The notes below the pieces were generated by a model that did no database searches, was not told the origin of the DNA, and was given only the letters and a program-made list of their open reading frames with translations. A stretch of 64,000 nt of DNA from Candidatus Peregrinibacteria bacterium. GTDB lineage: Bacteria; Patescibacteriota; Gracilibacteria; UBA1369; JACRIC01. A program made the translations under genes and the position numbers. Of the stretch, positions 1,821 to 60,022 are shown in pieces. How positions within the stretch are numbered: position 1 is the first letter of the stretch; every line of letters starts with the position of its first letter. The stretch lies in NCBI GenBank assembly GCA_016188705.1, contig JACPHH010000028.1, forward strand, positions 1,534 through 65,533, written 5' to 3'.

Positions 1821-2262
1821 TGGTGGAGATGCCGGGAGTCGAACCCGGGTCCAAAGACGAAGAAGAAAAACCTCTACAATCATAGTTTGCTTTCATTGAG
1901 CCATTAAAAGATAAAAAACAAACGAAAAACCTTATAATGGCAAGTTCAAAATTTTCGTGATTTTGACCGAACTTACAAATCAAAATCCTTATCCTGAAAA
2001 GTTACACCGTAAAGAAATTATCAGGAATCATTTCCCACGATGCTCGTCAGCCTCCATTAAGGGAGGCTGAAACGAGAAAAACCTTAGGCAAGAACTGGCA
2101 CGGGAGCAAGAGCCTTGAGAGCCCTTACTGTTGCCATCTCACCAAAAGTTCGCAGATTTTCTGCACTTAATGCGCGCTGGACGGATTAAAGGTGGGACAG
2201 CGCGACCACCTGATTGCCATCTTTCCTCAAAAACATCTCTGTCGAAGCCAAATTACATCCCC
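1821..2262 (-). ncRNA. ssrA: tmRNA
   Basis: 5' end GGGGATGTAATTTGGCTTCGAC; 3' end GGACCCGGGTTCGACTCCCGGCATCTCCACCA; tag frame 2164-2084 AENLRTFGEMATVRALKALAPVPVLA*. Confidence 0.95.
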
Positions 2263-2310: not shown

Positions 2311-2472
2311 GGAACCTCTGAAAAACGTAACTTCGTAACGAAATTTTACCATGTTGAGCGAAAAATGTGAAAAGCGACAAAGACGTATCAGATAAGATAC
2401 GTTGAGGAGCTTTGAACATTTTGCAGCCAACATGGTAAAATTGCAGTAGATGGTAGGTTTTTCAGAGGTTCC
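2311..2472 (+). mobile_element. Palindromic miniature element (MITE) family A, full copy
   Basis: TIR GGAACCTCTGAAAAAC/GTTTTTCAGAGGTTCC, TAAA on both flanks, nested stems around CGTATC-N6-GATACG. Confidence 0.8.
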
Positions 2473-6028: not shown

Positions 6029-7138
6029 TTACATCTTAAGAGGCATAATAATATGGATGTAATCATCTTTTCCGAGCGGCTTAAGAAGCGCTGGTGATAA
6101 TTTGGAATCAATTTCAAAAACCACCTCATGGCTTCCAATATTAGTTAAAATATCAAGAAGAAATTGAAAATTAAGAGCTATTTGATTATCTTCTCCTTGT
6201 ATTTGAGTAGAAATTTCTGTTGTTTCCTCTCCAACTTGGGTTTCTCCCGTGGATAAAATAAGTTTTTGCTCATTTGTAAGGCTTATTTTAATATTATTAC
6301 TTTCTTCTAATACAAACAGACTTACCTTTTTTACGCCAAGAATAAAATCTTGAGTTAAAAGAGTGCATTTTGTTTTACTGGTTTGGGGAATAATTTTTTC
6401 ATAATCAGGAAAACTCCCTTCAATAAGTCGTGAAACAAGTTCAATATTATCCACTTTAAAAAGTATTTGATTTTTTGAAACCTGTACTTCAATGGGAATA
6501 TTACTAGATAAACTCATAAGAATTTTCCCAAGTTCTTGAATGGTTTTTGCTGGAATAATGCACTGAATATTATTTTTCACTACTTCTTGCAAAGTAATTA
6601 TTTTTTTAGAAAGTCGATAGCTGTCAGTGGCGACAAGAGTAAGTTTATTTTTATCAACATGAAAAAGAATACCCGCGAGAGTTGGTCTGGAAAGATTTAC
6701 TGAGGCGGCAAAAACAACTTGATTAATGCCATTTATAAATTCTTCTACTGGAAGATTTACAATATTCGGCTGTTCGATTTTAGGAATAAGAGGAAATTCA
6801 TCTGCTGAAATACCTTTTATTTTTGTTCTTGAAGACTTTGATTTAATAGCAAGAGTAAGACCTTCTTCGAGTTTAAATTCTATTTTTTCATCTTGAAGAA
6901 GGTGTATATAATTCGTAAAAAGTTTAGCGGGGAGTGTAATACTTCCTTCGTTTTGAATATCAGCTTGAATCCAAAAATGAATGGCAATTTCAAGATTTGT
7001 GGCGGAAAAATAAAGTCTTTTTCCTTCTGCTTTTAAAAGAATATTATTTAAAACAGGTAAGGTGTTATGAAGACTTACTGCTTTATTTACAATATTTAAA
7101 GCAAATATCAGGCTTTTTTGATCTACTGAGAGTTTCAT
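6029..7138 (-). CDS. dnaN: DNA polymerase III beta clamp
   Basis: SATNLE, VATDSYRL, SRLIEGSFPDY, IIMPLK. Confidence 0.97.
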   Translation of the reverse strand: MKLSVDQKSLIFALNIVNKAVSLHNTLPVLNNILLKAEGKRLYFSATNLEIAIHFWIQADIQNEGSITLPAKLFTNYIHLLQDEKIEFKLEEGLTLAIKSKSSRTKIKGISADEFPLIPKIEQPNIVNLPVEEFINGINQVVFAASVNLSRPTLAGILFHVDKNKLTLVATDSYRLSKKIITLQEVVKNNIQCIIPAKTIQELGKILMSLSSNIPIEVQVSKNQILFKVDNIELVSRLIEGSFPDYEKIIPQTSKTKCTLLTQDFILGVKKVSLFVLEESNNIKISLTNEQKLILSTGETQVGEETTEISTQIQGEDNQIALNFQFLLDILTNIGSHEVVFEIDSKLSPALLKPLGKDDYIHIIMPLKM

Positions 7139-7199
7139 AAAATTCAATAATACCCACTCATTATAATCAAAAAAAAGTTTCTGACAAACTATTTCAAAA

Positions 7200-7560
7200 C
7201 CTTACGACATAATTTTTTTAAAATATATAAAATAGTAGTAAATAGACAGGGCTTGATAAATTTTTTTATTATTAGATATTTATATTTAGAGTATTAAAAA
7301 GCTTATTAAAAATATAAAAGAAAAAAGTTGAATATTTTTTTAATTCAAAAATAATGGCAATAAAGTAAAAGTTTTAGACAGTGTGTTAATAAAAACTTAA
7401 CTCTAATAAAATAATATTTTTCTTTATTTTAAAAATAAAAAAAACATCATTATATAGAGAAAAATAAAGGAATAAAAAAATAAGTCATGGCGAAAAAAAT
7501 TCTTCTGTCTAAAACTTGTGTATAACTTGTTAAAAAATATACGCGTATAAACTTTTTAAC
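7200..7560. other. Candidate replication origin elements (DnaA-trio-like tract and DnaA box)
   Basis: ATATAAAATAGTAGTAAATAGACAGGGC at about 7225-7252; consensus DnaA box TGTGTATAA 7517-7525; very AT-rich 600-bp gap upstream of dnaN. Confidence 0.5.
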
Positions 7561-7749
7561 AAAGATTTTTTTTCAAACCATTTACCAAGGAAAAACTCAA
7601 TTTTTTGCCGTAAAAATGGGAAAAATAAAACATTGAGATATTAAAAAATAAAAAACAAAAATAAAAAAGTGAAAAAATACTTTTCTACAAATAAAGGAAA
7701 CTTTCCAACTAAATAAAAAAAGTAAGGCGATGAGTAAATGCTAAAAAAA

Positions 7750-13156: not shown

Positions 13157-13212
13157 GGAATTTTAAGAAAAACGTGCTTATTACTGCGATTTACAAATTT
13201 TGGCTGTAAAAT
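13157..13212 (-). repeat. Family A element, degenerate end fragment
   Basis: CTAA|GGAATTTTAAGAAAAACGTGCTTATTACTGC...TTTTGGCTG resembles the reverse complement of the family A right arm. Confidence 0.55.
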
Positions 13213-13440
13213 TTTTCATCGCGTGCTATGACTGTCCATCATTTTTTTAAAACAATGGGCAATTCCCTGCATGAGGTATTGTATAAGGAAATGAAATCAT
13301 AATACAATATAAAGGCTTTATTTATTCAATCTCTGACGCTGACTTTTTTAACTTGTGCCTCGATTTTGTTATGGTAACTGAATAAATGAATTATTTTCAG
13401 GACATTTAAAAGATTTATTCATTTTTAAAAAATCCATCGT

Positions 13441-14762: not shown

Positions 14763-15227
14763 ATGGCCATTCTTTCAATGCAAACAGGCGCGGATAATCC
14801 GATTCTGCGAAAAAAATCGACAGAGGTAAAAAAAATCGATACCAAGTTGAAAAAGTTTATCGATGACATGAAAGATACGCTTGTGTCGCACGAAGGCATT
14901 GGACTTGCGGCTCCTCAGGTAGGGAAAAATATCCGCGTGGTTCTCGTTTGTCTCAATCCGAAAACAAAAAACGAAAATACGGTTGTCATGATCAATCCTG
15001 AAATAACGTATAAATCTGAAGAAATGTATGAGGCGGAAGAGGGTTGTTTAAGTCTTCCTGGAATATATTTGCAGGTTTTGCGTTCTAAGGAAATTATTGT
15101 CGATTTTCAATCTTTAAAAAAACAAAAACAAACACTTCGCCTCGAAGGTATAAATGCTCGCATTGTCCAGCATGAAGTCGATCACGTTAACGGCATTCTT
15201 ATCGTGGACTACCATTTGAACGCATAG
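14763..15227 (+). CDS. def: Peptide deformylase
   Basis: GIGLAAPQVG, EGCLS, QHEVDH. Confidence 0.97.
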   Translation: MAILSMQTGADNPILRKKSTEVKKIDTKLKKFIDDMKDTLVSHEGIGLAAPQVGKNIRVVLVCLNPKTKNENTVVMINPEITYKSEEMYEAEEGCLSLPGIYLQVLRSKEIIVDFQSLKKQKQTLRLEGINARIVQHEVDHVNGILIVDYHLNA

Positions 15228-15341
15228 CAAAGCGTAGAGAAAATGTAGTTCCTGCCCATCTACTATTTGAATAAAAAATAACAGCAGTGGGAAAATTACG
15301 TTTTTATAGATTTTAGAACGATTTTTTGCTAAAATAAAACC

Positions 15342-25333: not shown

Positions 25334-25480
25334 AGGAACTCCCGCAAAATTTCGTTACGAAAATGAGGTTTTGTGAGAATTCCTGCCATTTGAGCGCGTG
25401 GCAAAGCATAGCGAAAATGAAGTTCCCGCCGCATTTCTACTACAATTTGAACGCAGAGCGAAACGTGGCGTAGCGAAAAT
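25334..25480 (+). repeat. Nested remnants of palindromic families A and C
   Basis: AGGAACTCCCGCAAAA-TTTCGTTACGA...GAATTCCT followed by two ATTTGA(G/A)CGC...TAGCGAAAAT units. Confidence 0.55.
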
Positions 25481-27079: not shown

Positions 27080-27165
27080 GGAAACTTCTGAAAAACGTGG
27101 TTTCATTAGGGAGTTTCTGAAAAACATCTTTTTTATTGTAATTTGCAAACTTCGCGCGAAAATTT
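27080..27165. repeat. Family A element remnants
   Basis: Two tandem TIR-like GGAAACTTCTGAAAAAC / GGAGTTTCTGAAAAAC copies between convergent genes. Confidence 0.5.
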
Positions 27166-28935: not shown

Positions 28936-29005
28936 AAAAGAGGGCGGGGACTACCATTTGAGCGCATAGCGAAGCGTAGCGAGAATGGAGTTCCCGCCCT
29001 CTTTT
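28936..29005. repeat. Palindromic element family C, best copy
   Basis: AAAAGAGGGCGGGGACTACCATT...AATGGAGTTCCCGCCCTCTTTT enclosing TGAGCGCATAGCGAAGCGTAGCGAG; partial copies at 15224-15257 and 25385-25480. Confidence 0.65.
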
Positions 29006-49322: not shown

Positions 49323-49584
49323 GGAAGATGAGTTAAAAATTGTATAAGTCCTCTGTAAAACATAATTTCATTATGAAATTTACAGGAGAAAGTAGATTCT
49401 CAAAGGACTTTATATATAAAAATAGAGAAAAATAAAATGATCTTCGCTTAAAATTATCCTCGCTTATTTGATAACGCATATCCGCATAATTTGCATAGCA
49501 TAGTATGGATAGTTTGATGGAAAGATAAAAAAGGACTGAGGAATGAATCCTAACATAAACGCCATGAAATAAACAAGAAAAAGA

Positions 49585-52000: not shown

Positions 52001-52063
52001 AGAAAAATCTTCCCTCAAAACATACAGAAGAAAGTTAAAATTTTTCTAAAGCAGAAATAAAAT

Positions 52064-52139
52064 AGACTCACTGCGCAGTGAGTTTAATAGCTTTAAGAAA
52101 AACGTGATTTCGTTACGAAGTCACGTTTTTCAGAGGCTC
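52064..52139. repeat. Probable terminator hairpin plus collapsed family A hairpin
   Basis: ACTCACTGCGCAGTGAGT; GAAAAACGTGA-TTTCGTTACGAAG-TCACGTTTTTC then AGAGGCTC|TTTA. Confidence 0.55.
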
Positions 52140-52180
52140 TTTAAGTTATCCATCTGTTTATTGTCGTAATTAAAGAAAAA

Positions 52181-53662
52181 TTATACTTTCAGCGCAAATT
52201 TTTTTCGTACAATCGCAAAACCTAATATTCCGGAAAGGAGAGAAAGCGCTATCAGTCCTCCCGGACCGGTTTTTGGAAGTTCCGATGGACATTGAAGGCA
52301 TGAACTTGCGGTAACTCCGAGGCTTTCATTGCCTGACGTGTCTCGGGTCGAAATTTTAAAGGTATAACTCATGGTTGGATCCAGAGTAAGTTCATAACTT
52401 GTGGAATCTGGAGCAAGAATTGTGCCTTGATCATAAGTTTTGCCAATATCGGTACTGACATACACGACATAATTTTTAAGATCCCCTGCTGAATTTAAGG
52501 AAGCTGTCCAGCTGAGTTTTGCGGCATTATTTTGAATAGCGGTAATAATATTCGTGACCTCTTCCGGCGGAGTGGTGTCACTATTAGAATTAATGGCTTG
52601 CTCATTCACAAAACGTGCTCGCGAAGTATAATCATCGGCAATAAGATTACCCGCGAGATCGCTCACGTTTTGGACTTTTATTTCATATTCCGTATTGGCG
52701 ACTTGCTCTTCGGTTGTAAGAGTCGCGGTTTTTTTATCATCACTAAGACTGGCGCTATACACGGAAAGATTTACAGCGCTTCCATCGACTTCTGTAATTT
52801 GAAAATTATCACTGCCGTTCACGACGACAGGTTCAGAGAAAGTAATCTGTGCTTGAGTTGTACTGGTCGCGTCGGCGCTTATGATTTCAGGAGCGACGGT
52901 ATCCGTGGAAGAGGGTTGAGTCGGTTGTGGAGTGGTTGAGGAAACTCCTGTAAAACTCGCCGTATCCGATTCTCCGCTTTCAATAGGATTGCCGGCGGTA
53001 TCTTTCACCGCAATTCCAAGGGTAAGAATGTATGAGGCGCCTGCGACTTGTTGAGCAGTAGTGAGAAGAACCGTTTTTCCTTGAATGTCTTCAATGTCCA
53101 TTTCAACTTTCGTGACAGATAAAGGTTCCAGCGTGTCGGATTTTTCAATGGAAAAAGCGGTTTCAGGTTTATCGGCTGGAAGTGTAATGGATTCGGAAAA
53201 AATAACTCTTACTTGTGTGTTAGTCAGGGCTATTGCCGAAGTTACCGTTGGAGCTACCGTATCAACGGAAGTCGTACTCCCTTTTGGAGTGGCGCTTGCT
53301 TCATAGCTGTAATTTTCAGATTCATTTCCTGCCGCATCAAGAGCTGTTATCGCAAAATAGTATGTAGTCCCGTTTTTAAGGTTTTTGACCGTATAAGTAA
53401 GTACATTGCCTGCTTCAATGGGGAATTGATACTGGCCGCCATCAACCGTAACAGATTCAATGCCATAGTACACCTTGTAAGAAACAGTATCTTTATCGAC
53501 CGAAGCATCCCATCGAAGGGTTACTTGCCCATCACCGGCAGTAGCAATAACATTTTCTGGTTCTGAGGGAGAAGTAACATCTTTCGTTTGAGCGAGTACG
53601 GCCTGAAACGAGATTAAAATGCTTAAAAGGCCAACAAAGAGGAAAAAGGTTATTTTTTTCAT
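52181..53662 (-). CDS. Fn3/Ig-like surface protein with LPxTG sorting signal
   Basis: Signal peptide, two Fn3 domains (DAAGNES, DTSGNES), two Ig-like domains, LPKTG plus TM plus RKK. Confidence 0.85.
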   Translation of the reverse strand: MKKITFFLFVGLLSILISFQAVLAQTKDVTSPSEPENVIATAGDGQVTLRWDASVDKDTVSYKVYYGIESVTVDGGQYQFPIEAGNVLTYTVKNLKNGTTYYFAITALDAAGNESENYSYEASATPKGSTTSVDTVAPTVTSAIALTNTQVRVIFSESITLPADKPETAFSIEKSDTLEPLSVTKVEMDIEDIQGKTVLLTTAQQVAGASYILTLGIAVKDTAGNPIESGESDTASFTGVSSTTPQPTQPSSTDTVAPEIISADATSTTQAQITFSEPVVVNGSDNFQITEVDGSAVNLSVYSASLSDDKKTATLTTEEQVANTEYEIKVQNVSDLAGNLIADDYTSRARFVNEQAINSNSDTTPPEEVTNIITAIQNNAAKLSWTASLNSAGDLKNYVVYVSTDIGKTYDQGTILAPDSTSYELTLDPTMSYTFKISTRDTSGNESLGVTASSCLQCPSELPKTGPGGLIALSLLSGILGFAIVRKKFALKV

Positions 53663-53773
53663 AGTGTGCGAGAGTGAAATTGAAATAGAGATAGAAAAAT
53701 GAAAATATATCTCTATATAATATCAAAAAATGAAAAGACTTGCAATATATTTTTTTTGGAGCTTTACCATTGT

Positions 53774-54733
53774 TTACACACCACAACCGCCGCCACCGCT
53801 TTGCCGTACAGGTTGGACAAGCGATTGAATGGCTCGATATCCCTTTGAACTGGAATATTGGGCGCTGAGCATTTCTTTTGGATCAACATTTTCCCAGGAA
53901 ATACCATTTTTTAACTCGTATTTGGCCAGCGTAAGATAGGTAGTTGGAAACCAATAAGCATTCACCTGAAGGGCCATTTTGTACATATCAGCTTCCGACG
54001 TGCCTTGTGATGCCATAAGTTCAAGGAGTCCGAACATAGCCATGCCGTGGTTGCAATCAGGAAAGTAGGTTGAATTATTGCAGCACGGCCGAAAAATTCC
54101 TTTCGAAACATTTTCAACCAAAATTTGTTGGTCATAAGTAAGCTTGATAAATTCGTGTTTACTGAAATGATCCATGGCGTCGCCACTCGCGAGCGTCCAG
54201 CCGCCGGTTGAAGCGAAATTTCCAGCTCCGCCATATTCTTTGTCAGACATCGGGCCTGAGTTCAAAATTTCATTTTTATTACTCAGTCCAAGCGCCCAAA
54301 ACATATTGAGAATAAAACCGGCATTATCAGCTGTAATTTTTATTTTTCCGTTTTCACTTTCGTCCACAAGTTTTTGCTCGTCTGGACCAAATCCGGGTCG
54401 TTCTTTATAGAGAGAAAGAAGCTGGTTGCGATCAATAACACCCTTTTGAACGAGCTGTTTTCCCAAGTCCCCCCACCTGGCAGGAAGTTCAATCCCTTCC
54501 AATGGTAAAACAAGTTTCGTCAGACTCTCAATATCAATGTCAACATCGCTAATGGATGTAGTGTTTGTTCGATTTTCTGACAGGGTTCGAGCTGTTTTGC
54601 TATTACGAAAGAAAAGTCCCCTTAAATCTGGCCCATAGAGATCACCAAGAACAAAGCCGACACCGAGAGTGAGAATTGTTGCTCCTGCGAATAAGCTATA
54701 AAGAACTTTTTTTGCCGTCTTTTTTTGAGTCAT
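53774..54733 (-). CDS. Membrane-anchored Cys-rich hypothetical protein
   Basis: RPCCNNSTYFPDCNHG and terminal GGGGCGV. Confidence 0.75.
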   Translation of the reverse strand: MTQKKTAKKVLYSLFAGATILTLGVGFVLGDLYGPDLRGLFFRNSKTARTLSENRTNTTSISDVDIDIESLTKLVLPLEGIELPARWGDLGKQLVQKGVIDRNQLLSLYKERPGFGPDEQKLVDESENGKIKITADNAGFILNMFWALGLSNKNEILNSGPMSDKEYGGAGNFASTGGWTLASGDAMDHFSKHEFIKLTYDQQILVENVSKGIFRPCCNNSTYFPDCNHGMAMFGLLELMASQGTSEADMYKMALQVNAYWFPTTYLTLAKYELKNGISWENVDPKEMLSAQYSSSKGYRAIQSLVQPVRQSGGGGCGV

Positions 54734-54761
54734 TGTATTTTTTTTAAAAAAATAAAATGTA

Positions 54762-55202
54762 TTACCAATCTCGGCAACAGGCGATAAGCCGTTCCATAAT
54801 TTTTTGCATATTTGGATGATTTTGAAATAAATATATGCCCGTGAATACCAACCATAGAAAAGCCAGAAATGTCATGGCCATAATGACGCCGTCTCGAATA
54901 CCAATTGAGAGATACACAATAACAGTCATGGTGATGATAAATGGCCAACGAAAGAGCTGCCACTTGACCGGCGCCTTTTTTTCAAGGAGGTAATAAAGAC
55001 CAACGACGCTTTCTCCCATGAGAACACCAATAAGTGTTGAATTGACGTTATAGCCAAAAAAACGAAAACTTAAAAGTAACAGCCAAGTACCGCTCACCGC
55101 AACGCAGACCGCGCAAAATCTAAGTCGCAAGAAACTTTGTGCTGCGATGCCCGCGACAAAAATAGCCGTAGTGAAAAGGATAAGGAGTGGTAACACGCTC
55201 AT
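54762..55202 (-). CDS. Small membrane protein with CxxC and terminal CC
   Basis: FCAVCVAV, IACCRDW; 4-bp overlaps with upstream gene. Confidence 0.7.
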   Translation of the reverse strand: MSVLPLLILFTTAIFVAGIAAQSFLRLRFCAVCVAVSGTWLLLLSFRFFGYNVNSTLIGVLMGESVVGLYYLLEKKAPVKWQLFRWPFIITMTVIVYLSIGIRDGVIMAMTFLAFLWLVFTGIYLFQNHPNMQKIMERLIACCRDW

Positions 55203-55747
55203 AGAATAAATTGCGTTATGATTGAAATAATGCCAAGGAGGGCAAGAGTGAGCAGTACGCCTTGATACGGCAATGTTATGCCGCGATATTCGGTAATGAA
55301 TCGACTGAGTCGAGGAGTAAGAAAAATAAGAATGCCGCCAGTAAAACTGCCAACGAGAAATAAATTAATAGGATATGTACGATTAAGAAGTGATCCATAT
55401 GGCCCGCGCCAGTTAATATATATGGATGTATAGTCCGAGAGGAGCATTTTCAAGGGGAGAATAGTGGTAATCCAGGAAAACACGCCGAGAATAGCATCTT
55501 GATAAATCAAATATTTTTTTTTGATGATTCTGGCAATCCAAAGACCCATAGCCACGGCAAAAGCACCAAGAAATACTCCTATGGTCAAACCGTTGACTCC
55601 GAGCCAATAAGCGCCGAGAGTTATAAGCCCTGCCCCCGCTGTGCAAAGAGGACAGTGAGCAAAGACAGTAGCAGGAAGTAGAAAAGAGCTGAAGCCAATT
55701 CCAATGATAAAGATCCTCTGAAAAACATTCTTTCGACTGCGTTTCAT
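55199..55747 (-). CDS. Membrane protein with HCPLC motif
   Basis: Signal-like segment then AHCPLCTAGAG, several TM segments, PYQG; start may lie further upstream through the MITE. Confidence 0.7.
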   Translation of the reverse strand: MKRSRKNVFQRIFIIGIGFSSFLLPATVFAHCPLCTAGAGLITLGAYWLGVNGLTIGVFLGAFAVAMGLWIARIIKKKYLIYQDAILGVFSWITTILPLKMLLSDYTSIYINWRGPYGSLLNRTYPINLFLVGSFTGGILIFLTPRLSRFITEYRGITLPYQGVLLTLALLGIISIITQFIL

Positions 55748-55784
55748 TTTGAAAACAGTGTTTTTTAGAGGTTCAATGAGTAAA

Positions 55785-55948
55785 GGAAACCCTGATAAAT
55801 ATGATTTCGTTACGAAAATTGCAAAATTCGAGCGAAAACGCTGAATGACCGACGAAGCCGTATCAAAAAAAGATACGGTAAGGAGGTCTGAAGCGTTTGC
55901 AGCCGAATTTTGCAATTTGCAGTAGTAAGCATATTTATAAGGGTTTCT
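55785..55948 (+). mobile_element. Family A element, full copy (164 bp)
   Basis: TAAA flanks on both sides; nearly identical to 56584-56747. Confidence 0.85.
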
Positions 55949-56012
55949 TAAATGAGACCGCGCGATATTCATATTTTTTTTACTGCCAATGTAAGGTGTC
56001 AAAAGTTCAAAT

Positions 56013-56498
56013 TTAGAAACTTAAATAGGGTAGCGAAGTACCGTCCGCGTTAAAACTGGAAATATCAAAAGTTCCTATTTTTCCACCAGGCATTCCAGGA
56101 GAACCTGAGGGCATTCCAGGGAGGGCGATGCCGTCAATGTCAGGCTTTTCAGTTAATAATTTTTGAATAACTTCCGAGGGTATATGGCCCTCTACTGTAT
56201 AATTTTCGATGCGAGTAGTATGACAACTTTTAAGATTATCGGGAACGCCGAATTGTTGTTTTATCGTGGCCATATTTTCAGTTAATTTTTCTTCAACTTG
56301 AACGCCTGCCTTGCGTAAATATTTAATAAAATTGGCGCAGCAGCCACACGTTACCGAACGATAGACAACGGCATTTTTCCCCGCAAGAAGGTTGTTGTTT
56401 GAGGGAGACTGATTCGTTGTCGCGATGAATAAAACGAATCCGACAACGAAGGTAAGCACGCAGATAATTACGTATTTTTTTTGATATGACTTTATCAT
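56013..56498 (-). CDS. DUF411 metal-binding protein
   Basis: TCGCC, SCHT, VEGHIP, GIALPGMPSGSPGM. Confidence 0.9.
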   Translation of the reverse strand: MIKSYQKKYVIICVLTFVVGFVLFIATTNQSPSNNNLLAGKNAVVYRSVTCGCCANFIKYLRKAGVQVEEKLTENMATIKQQFGVPDNLKSCHTTRIENYTVEGHIPSEVIQKLLTEKPDIDGIALPGMPSGSPGMPGGKIGTFDISSFNADGTSLPYLSF

Positions 56499-56583
56499 AG
56501 AGAATAAAAATTATAAAAATACCAATACCTATACCATAGGTCATGGTATTTAAAAAATACCACTTCTCATATTTGTTTGTCAA

Positions 56584-56747
56584 GGAAACCCTGATAAATA
56601 TGATTTCGTTACGAAAATTGCAAAATTCGAGCGAAAACGCTGAATGACCGACGAAGGCGTATCAAAAGAAGATACGGTGAGGAGGTCTGAAGCGTTTGCA
56701 GCCGAATTTTGCAATTTGCAGTAGTAAGCATATTTATCAGGGTTTCC
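56584..56747 (+). mobile_element. Family A element, full copy (164 bp)
   Basis: Perfect TIR GGAAACCCTGATAAATATG; flanks TCAA and TTAA. Confidence 0.88.
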
Positions 56748-56757
56748 TTAAATAAAA

Positions 56758-56861
56758 GAGCGTTAAAAAATGCGTATCAGATAAGATACGTAAAGGAGGA
56801 GTGACGAAGTCGTAGCCAAAATGGTAAAATTACAGTCGTTGGTACTTTTTTCAGAAGTTCC
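56758..56861 (+). repeat. Chimeric family B / family A remnant
   Basis: 19 bp matching the reverse complement of 44963-44981 joined at CGTA to a right half resembling the 2311 copy. Confidence 0.7.
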
Positions 56862-56891
56862 TAAGATGAATACCCTTATTATATTAAAAAC

Positions 56892-58202
56892 GTGTCAATA
56901 AATTCCTTCGTTATTATCGTGGCGGCTGGAAAATCACGGCGTTTCAAAAAAAAGCTTTTTCGGGAAATTGATGGAAAAAAAATTCTCGTTTATACGCTTG
57001 AAGCCTTTGAAAAACACCCAAGCATTCATCATGTGATCATTGTCGTTCGAAATGAAGAACAAAAAGAAATAAAAAAAATGTTACGGGAAGAAGGAATAAA
57101 AAAAGTCAAAGCTTTGGTGAATGGCGGGGAAACTCGGCAAAAAAGTGTAAAAAAAGGACTGGAGTGGCTTATAAAAGTAAAAAAGCCAAAGAAAAACGAT
57201 ATCATCATGATACATAACGGAGCCAATCCACTCGTGTCTCAAAAGGAAATAACAGACGTGCTAATGGCCGCTCAATCATTTGGAGCCGCCGCCTGCGGAG
57301 TGTCGCTTGTGGATACTATAAAAAAAGTAAAGGGTGGTTTTGTGCAAAAAACAATACTTCGGGAAAATCTCGCGGTGATGCAGACACCGCAAGCTCTTCG
57401 ATTTGACTGGCTCGTGGAAGGGATGAAAAAGGCTGAAAAAGAGGGAAAAATTTTTACGGACGATGTGAGTTTAGTAGAGCAGTTAGGGAAAAAAGTAAAA
57501 ATTGTGCAAGCGCGTGAAGAAAATAAAAAAATAACATTCGAAAGCGATATTTTGTACATGCGGCGCATAATTGAAAACAGAAAAAGACTAAAAAATATAG
57601 CTTTAAATAAAGAAAAAGGTAAAAATAATGACGATAAAAAAGATCAAAAAAGAGAAAATGACAAAAATGAGCTAAAAATGATATGTAATAATATAAAAAA
57701 ATGGCTAATAAAAAAGGAAAATAATACCAATTATTCTTTTGGAATTGGAGAGGATAGTCATGTGTTTTCAAATGAAAAAGGGCTTACTCTCGGAGGAATA
57801 TACTTTCCCTATTATCAAAAACTCGACGCGAATTCTGATGGAGACATTATTATTCATGCTCTTTTTAACGCGCTTTCCTCTGCCATTGGCGGTGATTCTC
57901 TTGGTAAAACGGCAGATTCCCTTTTTCAACATCAATTAATAAAAGACAGTACCGTCTATCTTAAGCCGTTATTGGAAGTTATGCAAAAACGTAACCTTAA
58001 AGTGAGTCATCTCGCTATAAGTTTGATTACCCAAAAACCAAAAATCGATGATCACGCAAAGGAAATAAAAGATTCTCTCTCAAATATTCTCAAGATGCCA
58101 AATAACCATATCGGGCTTACGGCCACATCGGGCGAAGGGCTTCCTGATTGGAAAAAAGTTATGAAATGTACCTGCGTTGCGCTTTTGGAAAAAAAGAAAT
58201 AA
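56892..58202 (+). CDS. ispDF: Bifunctional IspD/IspF with K/N-rich linker
   Basis: AAGKSRR, GGETRQKSV, QTPQ, TDD, NKKIT; GIGEDSH, NSDGDIIIHA, ATSGEGL. Confidence 0.9.
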   Translation: MSINSFVIIVAAGKSRRFKKKLFREIDGKKILVYTLEAFEKHPSIHHVIIVVRNEEQKEIKKMLREEGIKKVKALVNGGETRQKSVKKGLEWLIKVKKPKKNDIIMIHNGANPLVSQKEITDVLMAAQSFGAAACGVSLVDTIKKVKGGFVQKTILRENLAVMQTPQALRFDWLVEGMKKAEKEGKIFTDDVSLVEQLGKKVKIVQAREENKKITFESDILYMRRIIENRKRLKNIALNKEKGKNNDDKKDQKRENDKNELKMICNNIKKWLIKKENNTNYSFGIGEDSHVFSNEKGLTLGGIYFPYYQKLDANSDGDIIIHALFNALSSAIGGDSLGKTADSLFQHQLIKDSTVYLKPLLEVMQKRNLKVSHLAISLITQKPKIDDHAKEIKDSLSNILKMPNNHIGLTATSGEGLPDWKKVMKCTCVALLEKKK

Positions 58203-58216
58203 TACAAAAAATCAAT

Positions 58217-59143
58217 ATGATAACTCTTAAATCTCCCGCGAAGGTCAATCTCGCTCTCGATGTTCTTGGAAAAGATGAAAAAAGCGGCTACCACGAAATA
58301 CAAACAGTCTATCAAGAAATTCCGCTTTATGACGAAATTACCATAGAAGAGATAGCGAAAAATGAAATTCAAATAGAGTGGCGGCCATTGCATCACAATT
58401 TGATGAATCAATATATGGGAACGCACATTATCATGAATCAAAACGAGTTTCTCATGGACGCGGAGGCTTTTTCTGAACCGAAAAAAGAAGATAATACCGC
58501 GGTTCGTGCCGCGAGACTCATAAAAGAAAAATACGGCGTTAATAAAGGTCTCAAAATAAAAAAAAAAAAAAATATTCCTTTAAGGTCGGGACTTGGAGGA
58601 GGAAGTAGTAACGCTGCGGCGGTTTTAAAAGGATTAAATGTGATATGGAATCTCGGGCTTAATGTTGAACAATTGAGAAAAATCGCGGCAAAAATAGGTA
58701 TGGATGTGGCTTTTTTTATCGAAGGCGGAACAGCATACGGCACGCATTTTGGGGAAAAAATAGAAATGCTTCCGTCATTCGATGGGGATATCATGTTATT
58801 TCACACGGGGCTTGAAGTTGAAAGTAGAGCGGCGTATGCGGAGTTGGATTGCGGAAAGTGCGGACAAAATAAAGACAATACGAAAAAGATTGTTGAAGCT
58901 TTAAGAAAAGAAAAAAATAAAAGAACTTTTGAAAAACACATTTTTAAAAATGAAACACGGTTGAAAGATACGTTTCTTGAAGTTCCTAAAAATGAAATAT
59001 TTGAATTGTTCCATAATGATTTTGAATATTTGATTCAAAAAAAATTTCCGCGCATTGCCTCTGATTTTCATAGGGCGAAAAAAACTCCAGCGAAATATGT
59101 TGGACTCAGCGGTTCAGGCGGAATGATTTTCAGTGTATATTAA
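58217..59143 (+). CDS. ispE: 4-diphosphocytidyl-2-C-methyl-D-erythritol kinase
   Basis: SPAKVNLAL, GYHEIQT, IPLRSGLGGGSSNAA, GMDVAFF, NDFE, LSGSG. Confidence 0.93.
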   Translation: MITLKSPAKVNLALDVLGKDEKSGYHEIQTVYQEIPLYDEITIEEIAKNEIQIEWRPLHHNLMNQYMGTHIIMNQNEFLMDAEAFSEPKKEDNTAVRAARLIKEKYGVNKGLKIKKKKNIPLRSGLGGGSSNAAAVLKGLNVIWNLGLNVEQLRKIAAKIGMDVAFFIEGGTAYGTHFGEKIEMLPSFDGDIMLFHTGLEVESRAAYAELDCGKCGQNKDNTKKIVEALRKEKNKRTFEKHIFKNETRLKDTFLEVPKNEIFELFHNDFEYLIQKKFPRIASDFHRAKKTPAKYVGLSGSGGMIFSVY

Positions 59144-59144
59144 A

Positions 59145-59264
59145 GAGCCTCCGAAAAACACAATTTTGGAAACGAACTATAGAAGCCTTAAGAAAAACAA
59201 ATTTTCATTACGAAATTTGCAAATTTTGTCATTGCTGTAGAAAATTTTATGTGAACACTGCCTA
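59145..59264. repeat. Family A remnants and family D end between convergent ispE and recR
   Basis: TAAA|GAGCCTCCGAAAAAC; TTTCATTACGAAATTTGCAAATT; TGTGAACACTGCCTA overlapping the recR stop. Confidence 0.55.
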
Positions 59265-59867
59265 ATATATATGTCGTCCTTCGAGGGCGTTTTTAAGCGT
59301 CATTTGATCGGCATATTCAAGATCCCCGCCCATGGGAATACCGCAGGCAATTCGGCTAATTTTTATATCGTACGGTTTGAGAAGATTATGAATATACATA
59401 GCGGTTGCTTCGCCTTCCATCGTAGGATTCGTCGCAAGAATAATTTCTTTAATAATGGGATCATTTCGTTTGAGCCTTTTTTCCAGTTGGGCGATCGTGA
59501 TATCTTCAGGACCAATTCCATCAATGGGAGAAATAGCGCCATGCAACACATGGTACGTCCCTTTATAGTCGTGAGTTTTCTCAATGGCGAGAGCGTCAAG
59601 GGCTTCTTCGACAACGCAAATCGTCGATGTGTCGCGTGAAAAATCCGAACAAATAGTACAAAAAGATTGATCCGTCAGAATGGCGCAATTTTCACAGAGA
59701 AGAATATTTTCTTTGAGGCGAAGAAGAGTTGTGCCAAGTTTTTGGTGAAGAGAATGTTGGGAACGAAGAAGATAAAAAGCCAGTCTTTGAGCGGTTTTTG
59801 TGCCAATGCCGGGAAGTTCGGAAAATTCATGAATGAGAGATTGGAGTGACTGTGGAAGAAAATCCAT
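59262..59867 (-). CDS. recR: Recombination mediator RecR
   Basis: LPGIGTKTAQRL, C4 zinc finger, ATNPTMEGEATA, GGDLEYAD. Confidence 0.97.
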   Translation of the reverse strand: MDFLPQSLQSLIHEFSELPGIGTKTAQRLAFYLLRSQHSLHQKLGTTLLRLKENILLCENCAILTDQSFCTICSDFSRDTSTICVVEEALDALAIEKTHDYKGTYHVLHGAISPIDGIGPEDITIAQLEKRLKRNDPIIKEIILATNPTMEGEATAMYIHNLLKPYDIKISRIACGIPMGGDLEYADQMTLKNALEGRHIY

Positions 59868-60022
59868 AATACGATGAGAATGAAAAAAAGCCCTAAAGAA
59901 CATTAAGAAAAACAGATTTTCATTACGAAATGTATAATAAAAAAACGTTTTTTTAAAATTGCTTAAAAAGTTGCATACATACTATAACGCCACAACTCAA
60001 AAGATTCAATATTGTAAAAAAA

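What the first reader, a model, noticed from the sequence alone, without database searches (positions are those of the whole stretch)
2311..2472. Mobile hairpin family A with covarying stems and fixed internal loops
Seen: three full copies (2311-2472, 55785-55948, 56584-56747) and remnants (13157, 25334, 27080, 36701, 52097, 56773, 59145, 59904). Between subtypes the stem sequences change while still pairing (AATTTTACCATGTTG/CAACATGGTAAAATT vs AAATTGCAAAATTCG/CGAATTTTGCAATTT; AAAATGT/ACATTTT vs AAACGCT/AGCGTTT; AAGC/GCTT vs GACC/GGTC). The unpaired loops stay nearly fixed (TTCGTWACGA/GCAGTAG, AGCG/GCAGC, GAA/TGA, GACRAA/RAGGA) around CGTATC-N6-GATACG. G.T wobbles point to the + strand as the folded one. 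Ends are GG...CC with 4-bp TAAA/TTAA duplications. Known: GG termini with 4-bp YTAR-like duplications are typical of IS5-subgroup elements, and from memory the core recalls Rickettsia palindromic elements. Inference: a structured RNA or ssDNA under structural selection, carried by a MITE, possibly a protein-binding platform not described in CPR.
Basis: partly seen in the sequence, partly recalled or inferred. Interest (0 to 1): 0.72.

Follow-up and report, generated by a model that had tools for sequence, protein, structure and literature searches.

The report
Strand-specific hairpin mini-transposon of Peregrinibacteria
This is one copy of a small non-coding jumping-DNA element that litters tiny Peregrinibacteria genomes; it is unusual because one of its two strands is kept foldable into a long hairpin with fixed G-A mismatch loops, and its copies are oriented relative to DNA replication rather than to genes.

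Summary
Window 2311-2472, 55785-55948 and 56584-56747 are full copies of a ~162-164-bp element with GG...CC ends and 4-bp target duplications. It is a MITE: 212 loci (1.5% of this 1.37-Mb genome), 69 of them at least 140 bp. The same family was already noted by this scan on another piece of this genome.

Stems covary strongly: 27 of 52 pairs within the genome and 49 of 57 across 12 genomes. The "fixed loops" are all tandem G.A/A.G motifs plus an invariant apical hairpin. Two features mark the + strand as the folding strand: the G.A loops, and G.T outnumbering A.C 58 to 9.

The family occurs in 12 of 41 related genomes. In a public scan, 43 of 46 confirmed members carry Peregrinibacteria, Peribacteria or Patescibacteria labels. 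Internal motifs are better conserved than the termini.

Orientation ignores neighbouring genes but follows GC skew: the + strand lies on the C-rich strand 56 times against 23.

No Rfam match, cognate transposase or RNA data were found.

Best reading: a trans-mobilised MITE whose folded single DNA strand is what gets recognised. An RNA role remains possible.

The parts
2311..2472 (+). Full copy (the finding), subfamily with stem AATTTTACCATGTTG. TSD TAAA at 2307-2310 and 2473-2476. It lies directly upstream of the -35-like TTTACA of the tmRNA gene, which is on the - strand.
   Evidence: 180.5 bits on +, 74.3 on -
55785..55948 (+). Full copy, subfamily with stem AAATTGCAAAATTCG. TSD TAAA/TAAA. 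The 3' terminus reads CT instead of CC.
   Evidence: 171.2 bits. It is intergenic: the ORF that runs through it most likely starts downstream, at MKRSRKN.
56584..56747 (+). Full copy of the same subfamily, 96% identical to 55780-55952. Flanks TCAA/TTAA (one mismatch).
   Evidence: 178.6 bits
56770..56861 (+). 3' half of a copy: apical hairpin CGTATC-N6-GATACG plus the 3' arm and terminus.
   Evidence: nhmmer E 5e-13, profile positions 71-163; the repeat finder D2, 79%
55709..55775 (+). Probable termini-only derivative (about 66 bp) with ...CCTCTGAAAAAC / GTTTTTTAGAGG... arms.
   Evidence: read directly; the repeat finder D6, 78%; not reported by nhmmer or the covariance model
13167..13223 (-). 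Fragment of the 3' arm
   Evidence: nhmmer E 6.6e-7
25335..25383 (+). Weak match, 49 bp, termini only
   Evidence: covariance model E 0.021
27110..27163 (.). Fragment of a terminal arm, orientation ambiguous
   Evidence: nhmmer E 6e-6 on +; covariance model E 0.094 on -
52087..52140 (-). Terminal fragment
   Evidence: nhmmer E 9.4e-5; covariance model E 0.08
49346..49410 (+).
   Evidence: covariance model E 0.055; the repeat finder D4, 76%

Best explanation
This is a non-autonomous transposon (MITE) of about 162-164 bp with GG...CC inverted termini. It inserts with a 4-bp duplication of a T-W-W-A target and is, or recently was, mobilised in trans.

What sets it apart is that the lineages that proliferate keep one strand, the + strand, foldable into a single long hairpin. 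The stems may change only in compensated fashion. Five tandem G.A/A.G internal loops and the apical hairpin CGTATC-N6-7-GATACG stay fixed.

I think the fold acts as single-stranded DNA at the replication fork. There it would be the form that the mobilising enzyme, or a host factor needed for mobilisation, recognises. Copies accumulate with the folding strand on the leading-strand template, where it rarely becomes single-stranded. This parallels what is described for attC sites of sedentary integrons.

Shown: mobility signatures, covariation, strand asymmetry, distribution and the orientation bias.
Inferred: that the folded species is DNA rather than RNA, that folding serves mobilisation, and the DDE/IS5-like nature of the enzyme.
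For: **Mobility**
- 212 loci in the genome, 69 of them at least 140 bp.
- 33 of 45 copies have a perfect 4-bp TSD.
- Copies are inserted at TTTA inside the terminal arm of other copies.
- The tmRNA locus of relative G001 lacks the element.
- Private substitutions are only 0.6-1.1% per site.

**Fold under selection**
- Within the genome, 27 of 52 pairs change on both sides.
- Across 28 representatives of 12 genomes, 49 of 57 do, 97.2% of cells pair, and 0 of 500 shuffles reach the observed values.

**Strand specificity**
- The opposed G and A of the five loops are kept in 20-32 of 32 own-genome copies and 20-28 of 28 cross-genome copies.
- G.T outnumbers A.C 58 to 9.
- The + strand is the more stable in 28 of 28, with RNA parameters (-76.7 vs -64.0 kcal/mol) and DNA parameters (-44.2 vs -39.2).
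- The covariance model scores the + strand about 100 bits above the - strand.

**Conservation pattern**
- Apical stem 1.85 bits per column, unpaired and loop columns 1.24, inner stems 1.11, terminal stems 1.02.

**DNA-level arena**
- The + strand lies on the C-rich strand 32:17 in G000. This rises to 24:6 where |skew| > 0.06.
- In six relatives the ratio is 24:6, with G022 alone 16:3.
- Combined: 56:23, p = 2.6e-4.
- There is no bias relative to co-directional neighbouring genes: 11 same vs 19 opposite in G000, 5:5 and 8:9 in relatives.
- The element's own + strand is G-rich (skew +0.18), so the bias runs against composition.
- dnaN, an AT-rich gap and the cumulative-skew minimum lie at window 6-8 kb. 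This indicates that the G-rich strand is the leading strand.

**Precedent**
Against: - A fixed-length TSD plus terminal inverted repeats is the signature of DDE transposases acting on double-stranded DNA. No known single-strand transposon (IS200/IS605, IS91) makes TSDs.
- Y1 (HUH) transposase genes do not co-occur with the element. They are present in 12 of 41 genomes, of which only 3 are among the 12 that carry the element.
- No mobilising enzyme was identified at all.
- Orientation bias relative to replication is also reported for ordinary DDE IS families through the beta clamp (PMC3971601, passages read). It therefore does not by itself prove a single-stranded substrate.
- In G000 without a skew threshold the bias is only 40:28 (p = 0.18). 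Several thresholds were tried, so that part is exploratory.
- Short fragments show the same trend (41:30) rather than the reverse. Differential internal deletion is therefore not the source of the bias.
- The two copies at 55785 and 56584 sit on the G-rich strand, against the trend.
- G.A and G.T pairs are tolerated in RNA as well as DNA, so the fold itself does not discriminate between them.
- Gene calls were crude ORF calls. The cross-genome alignment was fitted to the model's structure.
Confidence: 0.5

Rival explanations
1. Ordinary dsDNA (IS5-like DDE) MITE whose hairpin matters as RNA. When read through from neighbouring promoters, the + strand transcript folds into a protein-binding or stabilising/insulating hairpin, with tandem G.A loops as a platform. 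This would resemble what is described for bcr1 of the Bacillus cereus group.
For: - Covariation and G.U-type wobble excess are the classic RNA signature.
- The energy gap between the strands is larger with RNA parameters: 12.7 vs 5.0 kcal/mol.
- Tandem G.A loops are common protein-binding RNA motifs (general knowledge).
- bcr1 is about 155 bp, has 5-bp direct repeats, is transcribed and shows compensatory changes (PMC3184786, passage read).
Against: - There is no co-orientation with neighbouring genes: 11 same vs 19 opposite in G000, 5:5 and 8:9 in relatives.
- The terminal pairs down to the first GG/CC covary, so a full-length transcript would have to start outside the element.
- No consistent promoter-like site lies inside the copies.
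- The orientation bias follows GC skew, not transcription.
- Private mutations hit paired, conserved-unpaired and variable sites at similar rates (0.70%, 0.57%, 1.1%). There is thus no sign of selection on individual copies, though power is low.
Confidence: 0.2
2. Classical DDE MITE in which only the termini matter for transposition. The rest of the palindrome and its asymmetry would be historical (left and right IS-end differences). The orientation bias would come from fork- or beta-clamp-directed insertion.
For: - TIR plus fixed TSD.
- Orientation biases are documented for DDE IS families, including some IS5 groups (PMC3971601).
- DDE_Tnp_1 genes occur in 4 of 12 element-bearing genomes against 2 of 29 others.
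Against: - It does not explain why inner stems change only in compensated pairs: 14 of 17 and 7 of 8 pairs in the two long inner helices.
- It does not explain why all arm differences are G opposite A.
- It does not explain why G.T outnumbers A.C 58:9.
- It does not explain why internal motifs are better conserved than the termini.
- The DDE_Tnp_1 genes examined have unrelated ends.
Confidence: 0.2
3. RNA-mediated (retro) mobilisation: the + strand transcript is the transposition intermediate, recognised through its fold, copied back into DNA and inserted at a 4-bp staggered cut.
For: It would explain strand-specific selection acting on proliferating lineages and the conservation of internal motifs over termini.
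Against: - Exact inverted termini and a fixed-length TSD are typical of DNA transposition.
- There is no poly-A-like or 3' priming feature.
- No internal promoter was seen.
- The orientation bias is relative to replication.
- Reverse-transcriptase co-occurrence was not tested.
Confidence: 0.04
4. Rickettsia-palindromic-element-like module whose main significance is in-frame insertion into genes, adding peptide segments.
For:
- 17 of 69 long copies lie inside crude ORF calls.
Against: - 52 of 69 copies are outside the ORF calls.
- The one in-ORF case in this window is an artefactual N-terminal extension.
- Conservation is in pairing and G.A loops, not in any reading frame.
- Sequence relation to RPEs was not testable here.
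Confidence: 0.03

Closest known systems
bcr1 repeat of the Bacillus cereus group (as summarised in PMC3184786, passage read)
   Same: About 155-bp dispersed repeat with short direct repeats at its ends. It folds into a long hairpin and shows compensatory base-pair changes.
   Different: bcr1 has 5-bp direct repeats and is reported as transcribed, with its structure interpreted at RNA level. Here the TSD is 4 bp, no transcript data exist, orientation follows replication rather than genes, and the loops are tandem G.A motifs. Sequence relation was not tested.
IS5-family-derived bacterial MITEs
   Same: GG-starting terminal inverted repeats, a 4-bp A/T-rich duplication (7 of 33 perfect TSDs fit YTAR), size, copy number, and absence of an ORF.
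   Different: No cognate IS5-type transposase with matching ends was found. Termini are less conserved across genomes than internal motifs, which is the reverse of the usual MITE pattern.
REPIN/RAYT systems and IS200/IS605 ends (PMC3116915, search listing and abstract only; PMC5027513, passages read)
   Same: Hairpin-forming, strand-specific elements whose folded single strand is the substrate, with a link to replication.
   Different: Those elements make no TSDs and depend on a Y1 HUH transposase. Here TSDs are present and Y1 genes do not co-occur. The polarity is also opposite to that reported for IS608 insertions.
Integron attC sites (PMC5371416, passages read)
   Same: Conserved as structure rather than sequence, with unpaired bases that mark one strand. 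[quoted passage not shown]
   Different: attC sites lie in cassette arrays next to an integrase gene and recombine site-specifically without TSDs. This element is dispersed, has inverted termini and has TSDs.

Membership tests
Bacterial MITE | Small, non-coding and multicopy | tested here: met
   162-164 bp; 212 loci in the genome, 69 of them at least 140 bp; no transposase-sized ORF fits inside.
Bacterial MITE | Terminal inverted repeats | tested here: met
   19-bp terminal helix, 96-98% paired.
Bacterial MITE | Target-site duplication of fixed length | tested here: met
   33 of 45 perfect 4-bp repeats and 11 with one mismatch; other lengths do not fit.
IS5-family derivative | Ends match a full-length IS encoding a DDE_Tnp_1-type transposase | tested here: not met
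   No PF01609, PF13359 or PF13586 match in G000 (94.65% complete, so absence is not proven). PF01609 genes in G001, G004, G022, G017, G024 and G031 carry unrelated ends.
IS5-family derivative | 4-bp YTAR-type target | tested here: inconclusive
   Consensus is T-W-W-A. TTTA 8, TAAA 7, TTAG 4, TCAA 3; strictly YTAR in 7 of 33.
IS1380 / IS701 derivative (other families with a 4-bp TSD) | Cognate transposase present in element-bearing genomes | tested here: not met
   PF13701 in 1 of 41 genomes and PF13546 in 0 of 41.
REPIN/RAYT or IS200/IS605-type element | Co-occurring Y1 (HUH) transposase; no TSD | tested here: not met
   PF01797 in 12 of 41 genomes, of which only 3 are among the 12 element-bearing genomes, and none in G000. 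TSDs are present.
Any Rfam family | Match to a curated covariance model | tested here: not met
   The gathering-threshold scan of the window found only tmRNA and one tRNA. A permissive scan of 5 copies gave only sub-threshold microRNA-hairpin and traJ noise.
Rickettsia palindromic elements | Sequence or consensus similarity to RPE families; in-frame insertion in genes | not testable with these tools
Integron attC | Cassette arrays next to intI, with R/L boxes | not tested
   Copies are dispersed with TSDs. No search for intI was run.

The most novel reading that the evidence does not exclude
A structure-read transposon. The mobilising enzyme would recognise one folded DNA strand (a tandem G.A platform plus an invariant apical hairpin) at the replication fork, as integron integrases or IS608 TnpA do. 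Yet integration leaves inverted termini flanked by a 4-bp duplication. That combination of single-strand, structure-specific recognition with staggered-cut integration is not described for any transposon family. It would be carried by an enzyme that none of the seven transposase families searched here matched.
Probability: 0.2. Interest if true: 0.85.

Novelty: new variant of a known kind. Interest (0 to 1): 0.56.

Why it matters
Hairpin MITEs are common, and compensatory changes have been reported before. Here the usual conservation pattern is inverted: internal G.A loops and the apical hairpin are better conserved than the termini. The fold is strand-specific, and copies are oriented by replication rather than transcription.

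If the folded single strand is the substrate, this would link classical TIR/TSD transposition to the single-strand, structure-specific recombination known from integrons and IS200/IS605. It would also point to an unidentified mobilising enzyme in CPR bacteria.

In practical terms the family makes up 1.5% of a 1.37-Mb genome. Several contigs of this assembly end in this or other repeat families. It offers more than 100 natural sequence variants of one fold for structure work.

Tried and rejected
- **RNA evidence:** The look-up of sequencing runs for window 52001-60000 listed no RNA holder.
- **Rfam:** nothing.
- **Autonomous partner in G000:**
  - 33 pairs of terminus-like hits 300-4000 bp apart were checked. 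Only one had matching 4-bp flanks, and it is metK flanked by a fragment and a chance hit.
  - Contig ends: four ends share an unassembled repeat whose ORF start looks ISL3-like (my recollection of that family's N-terminus). It has GGATCATGCAAT... ends, so it belongs to another MITE family.
  - Multicopy ORFs: one 3-copy 364-aa ORF without a Pfam hit, with different inverted repeats.
- **Transposase families:** PF01609, PF13359 and PF13586 in G000. PF01609 and PF13359 in five element-rich relatives. PF01797, PF01609, PF13701 and PF13546 across 41 genomes. None co-occurs convincingly and none has matching ends.
- **Viral carriers:** one pattern match in viral contigs, which the covariance model did not confirm.
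- **Clean empty site at the tmRNA locus:** G001 lacks the element, but the flank has diverged too far to show a precise empty site.
- **Differential deletion as the source of the orientation bias:** short derivatives show the same trend, 41:30, not the reverse.
- **Termini-only derivatives as a proliferating subfamily:** they are heterogeneous, with at most two similar copies each.
- **K-turn reading of the loops:** rejected by inspection, because the 3-nt bulge geometry does not fit.
- **Literature:** searches for Peregrinibacteria + MITE, and for miniature inverted-repeat + Candidate Phyla Radiation, found nothing relevant. The Peribacteria genome paper does not mention transposases, palindromes or mobile elements (PMC4736985, term search).

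Full report
**1. The observation**

The three full copies are at window 2311-2472, 55785-55948 and 56584-56747.
- The first folds as one 162-nt hairpin. Its RNA MFE is -79.9 kcal/mol against -32.1 +/- 3.8 for 200 dinucleotide shuffles (z = -12.6).
- Its complement folds less well, at -68.3. The third copy gives -83.1.
- The window is G000:C33:1534-65533 of a 1.37-Mb, 35-contig genome of about 39% GC.
- Earlier notes of this scan call the genome Peregrinibacteria (CPR). They had already met this same repeat family on another piece of it.

**2. Census**

Three rounds of nhmmer from the three copies gave 382 hits, which merge into 212 loci. These total 21,080 bp, or 1.5% of the genome.
- 69 loci are at least 140 bp and 47 are 155-170 bp.
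- The profile always scores one strand about 30 bits higher than the other, so the arms are not equivalent.
- A terminus pattern hits 400 times.
36701, 59145 and 59904 were not.

**3. It is a mobile element**
- Of 45 full copies aligned with 12-nt flanks, 33 have a perfect 4-bp direct repeat abutting GG...CC and 11 have one mismatch. Repeat lengths of 2, 3, 5 or 6 bp do not fit.
- The target consensus is T-W-W-A: TTTA 8, TAAA 7, TTAG 4, TCAA 3.
- Some copies are inserted at the TTTA inside the terminal arm of another copy.
- A 216-bp subfamily carries an extra 54-bp hairpin next to one G.A loop. It has five copies at different sites, four of them with matching or one-mismatch 4-bp flanks. The fifth is a subfamily chimera whose flanks differ.
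- The tmRNA locus of the related genome G001 lacks the element, although the flank has diverged too far for a clean empty site.
- Private substitutions within the two big subfamilies are only 0.6-1.1% per site. They hit paired, conserved-unpaired and variable sites alike. The copies are therefore young, and individual copies show no detectable constraint.

**4. Covariation**

On the 45-copy MAFFT alignment, RNAalifold predicts 52 pairs.
- 97.4% of cells pair, against 82.7% in shuffles.
- 27 pairs change on both sides.
- The covariation score is 0.390 against 0.135, and 0 of 500 shuffles reach it.
- Sliding the 3' partner by 1-3 columns drops pairing to 28-45%.

A covariance model built from 32 copies with a hand-checked structure of 57 pairs was run on 41 genomes of the same order.
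- 12 have matches: G000 66, G022 33, G001 29, G002 22, G004 9, G040 8, G032 5, G014 4, G034 2. G028 and G031 have 1 each, and G003 has one weak 36-bit match.
- These genomes are spread over six of the 19 family-level groups sampled.
- On 28 representatives of these genomes, 49 of 57 pairs change on both sides and 97.2% of cells pair. Again 0 of 500 shuffles reach the observed values.
- Caveat: that alignment is fitted to the model's structure, and relatives are not independent.

**5. What the 'fixed loops' are**

Read on the + strand, every conserved internal loop places G opposite A and A opposite G:
- C-GA-A over U-G(C)A-G, twice;
- U-GA-A over U-GA-A;
- C-GA-C-GA-A over U-GA-G-GA-G, next to the apical stem.

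In 32 own-genome copies the ten oppositions are kept in 20-32 of 32. In the 28 cross-genome representatives the bases are kept in 20-28 of 28, and many are invariant. On the - strand these positions would be C.T/T.C.

Independently, stems contain 58 G.T against 9 A.C combinations across genomes, and 55 against 20 within G000.

The + strand is the more stable in 28 of 28 sequences:
- with RNA parameters, -76.7 vs -64.0 kcal/mol;
- with DNA parameters, -44.2 vs -39.2 kcal/mol.

The model scores the + strand about 100 bits above the - strand in every genome. A cruciform or a purely double-stranded reading cannot produce this asymmetry. One strand is selected to fold.

**6. Conservation is inverted relative to an ordinary MITE**

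Mean information per column across genomes:

| Region | Bits per column |
|---|---|
| Apical stem CGTATC/GATACG | 1.85 |
| Unpaired and loop columns | 1.24 |
| Inner stems | 1.11 |
| Terminal stems | 1.02 |

The termini differ widely between genomes, for example GGAACCTCTGAAAAA, GGAGGTGCTGAAAAA and AGGTTCCTGCAAAAG, yet they always stay complementary.

**7. Distribution**

About 65 chance matches are expected from my own estimate for this pattern.
- Of the 80 loci listed, 46 are confirmed by the model at E <= 1e-12.
- 43 carry Peregrinibacteria, Peribacteria or 'Patescibacteria group' labels.
- The other three are one 'Gracilibacteria' MAG, one 'Elusimicrobia' MAG and one unnamed bacterium.
- The 34 unconfirmed loci include all the Nitrospira, Actinomycetes, Bacteroidales and similar hits.
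- The single viral-contig match was not confirmed.

**8. RNA or DNA?**

Relative to crude ORF calls, the 69 long copies of G000 lie as follows:

| Position | Copies |
|---|---|
| Between co-directional genes, same sense | 11 |
| Between co-directional genes, opposite sense | 19 |
| Between convergent genes | 7 |
| Between divergent genes | 14 |
| Inside ORF calls | 17 (7 same sense, 10 opposite) |
| Contig end | 1 |

In relatives the tandem counts are 5:5 and 8:9. Those two sets overlap. No consistent promoter-like site lies inside the copies. So the folding strand is not preferentially the transcribed one.

Orientation relative to local GC skew, with elements masked and +/-10 kb windows, is biased:
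- The + strand lies on the C-rich strand 32:17 in G000.
- This becomes 24:6 where |skew| > 0.06, but only 40:28 with no threshold. Several settings were tried, so this part is exploratory.
- In six relatives the ratio is 24:6, of which G022 alone gives 16:3.
- Combined: 56:23, binomial p = 2.6e-4.

The element's own + strand is G-rich (skew +0.18), so the bias runs against composition.

In the window, dnaN (6029-7147, - strand), a 25%-GC gap (7148-7749) and the cumulative-skew minimum coincide. This indicates an origin there and the usual polarity, with the G-rich strand leading. The folding strand therefore sits mostly on the leading-strand template.

Short derivatives show the same trend, 41:30, not the reverse.

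**9. The mobilising enzyme was not found**
- No DDE_Tnp_1, DDE_Tnp_4 or DDE_Tnp_1_2 match in G000, which is 94.65% complete.
- DDE_Tnp_1 genes occur in 6 of 41 genomes, 4 of them element-bearing. Those examined have unrelated ends.
- IS1380-type was found in 1 of 41 and IS701-type in 0 of 41.
- Y1 transposases occur in 12 of 41 genomes but overlap only 3 of the 12 element-bearing ones.
- The only terminus pair in G000 with matching flanks encloses metK.
- MAGs usually lose IS copies, so absence is not shown.

**10. Interpretation**

In a selfish repeat family whose individual copies decay neutrally, features conserved between subfamilies and genomes are those needed to proliferate. Here these are the strand-specific hairpin, its G.A loops and the apical hairpin.

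Together with the replication-linked rather than transcription-linked orientation, I favour a DNA-level role. In this reading the + strand folds when single-stranded and is the form recognised during mobilisation. Copies persist best where that strand is the leading-strand template. Two published cases support this:
- IS608 excision is favoured on the lagging-strand template (PMC5027513).

Three points count against it:
- The fixed TSD and inverted termini are the hallmark of double-strand DDE transposition.
- DDE IS families can also show replication-linked orientation through the beta clamp (PMC3971601).
- No enzyme is in hand.

The RNA reading is modelled on bcr1 (PMC3184786). It remains possible, but the orientation data do not favour it.

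**11. Comparison and novelty**

As a kind, a hairpin MITE with compensatory changes is known. No Rfam family matches. My searches found no paper on MITEs in these bacteria. Supplements of those papers were not inspected.

What is new:
- the tandem-G.A architecture;
- the inverted conservation pattern;
- the breadth across Peregrinibacteria;
- the replication-linked orientation.

I rate it a new variant of a known kind, with moderate interest.

Noticed in passing
window 6029-7749: Likely replication origin. dnaN (372 aa, all three beta-clamp domains) lies on the - strand, followed by a 600-bp gap of about 25% GC with repeated A/T-rich motifs. This sits at the minimum of cumulative GC skew. dnaA is not adjacent; the next gene is RNase J.
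   Followed up: partly
window 1821-2262 (- strand) and 2263-2310: tmRNA gene (Rfam, 133 bits). Its promoter-like TTTACA-N-TATACT lies immediately next to the element. The TTTA of the -35-like hexamer is the element's target duplication.
   Followed up: partly
G000 contig ends C20 (right), C31, C34, C35 (left): Four contig ends run into the same unassembled repeat. It ends in GGATCATGCAATTTTTGG and has an ORF start MNEHELLWDILPDGLNEYFELE. It looks like an ISL3-type IS, fitting the other (~220-bp) MITE family noted earlier in this genome.
   Followed up: partly
G000:C13:133027-134121 (locus L187 628-1722), also at the left ends of contigs C10 and C26: Three-copy 364-aa ORF with no Pfam match. 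It is flanked by 28-nt inverted repeats (AAAAATTGTAC...) about 1.45 kb apart. Possibly an unclassified IS.
   Followed up: partly
G000:C9:5874-6089, C12:30743-30959, C17:14042-14257, C29:64064-64279, C31:48275-48490: 216-bp subfamily of the element with a 54-bp extra hairpin (GGGGTCCCC...GAATGGGG) inserted beside the innermost G.A loops. The C31 copy is a chimera with one terminus from another subfamily and non-matching flanks, which suggests recombination between copies.
   Followed up: partly
window 15203-15257, 25377-25466, 28945-28999: A different short hairpin repeat family (ACTACCATTTGAGCGCATAGCGAAGCG...). It resembles the 54-bp insert of the 216-bp subfamily.
   Followed up: no
locus L152 (public record labelled Elusimicrobia MAG, 24.7-kb contig): A full copy (107.6 bits) sits in a MAG labelled Elusimicrobia. 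This is either a binning error or transfer outside the Peregrinibacteria.
   Followed up: no
loci L191-L210 (genome G022): Very strong local GC skew (up to +/-0.30 over 20 kb). Genes tend to lie on the C-rich strand (9 windows vs 5), which is unusual strand asymmetry for a bacterium.
   Followed up: no
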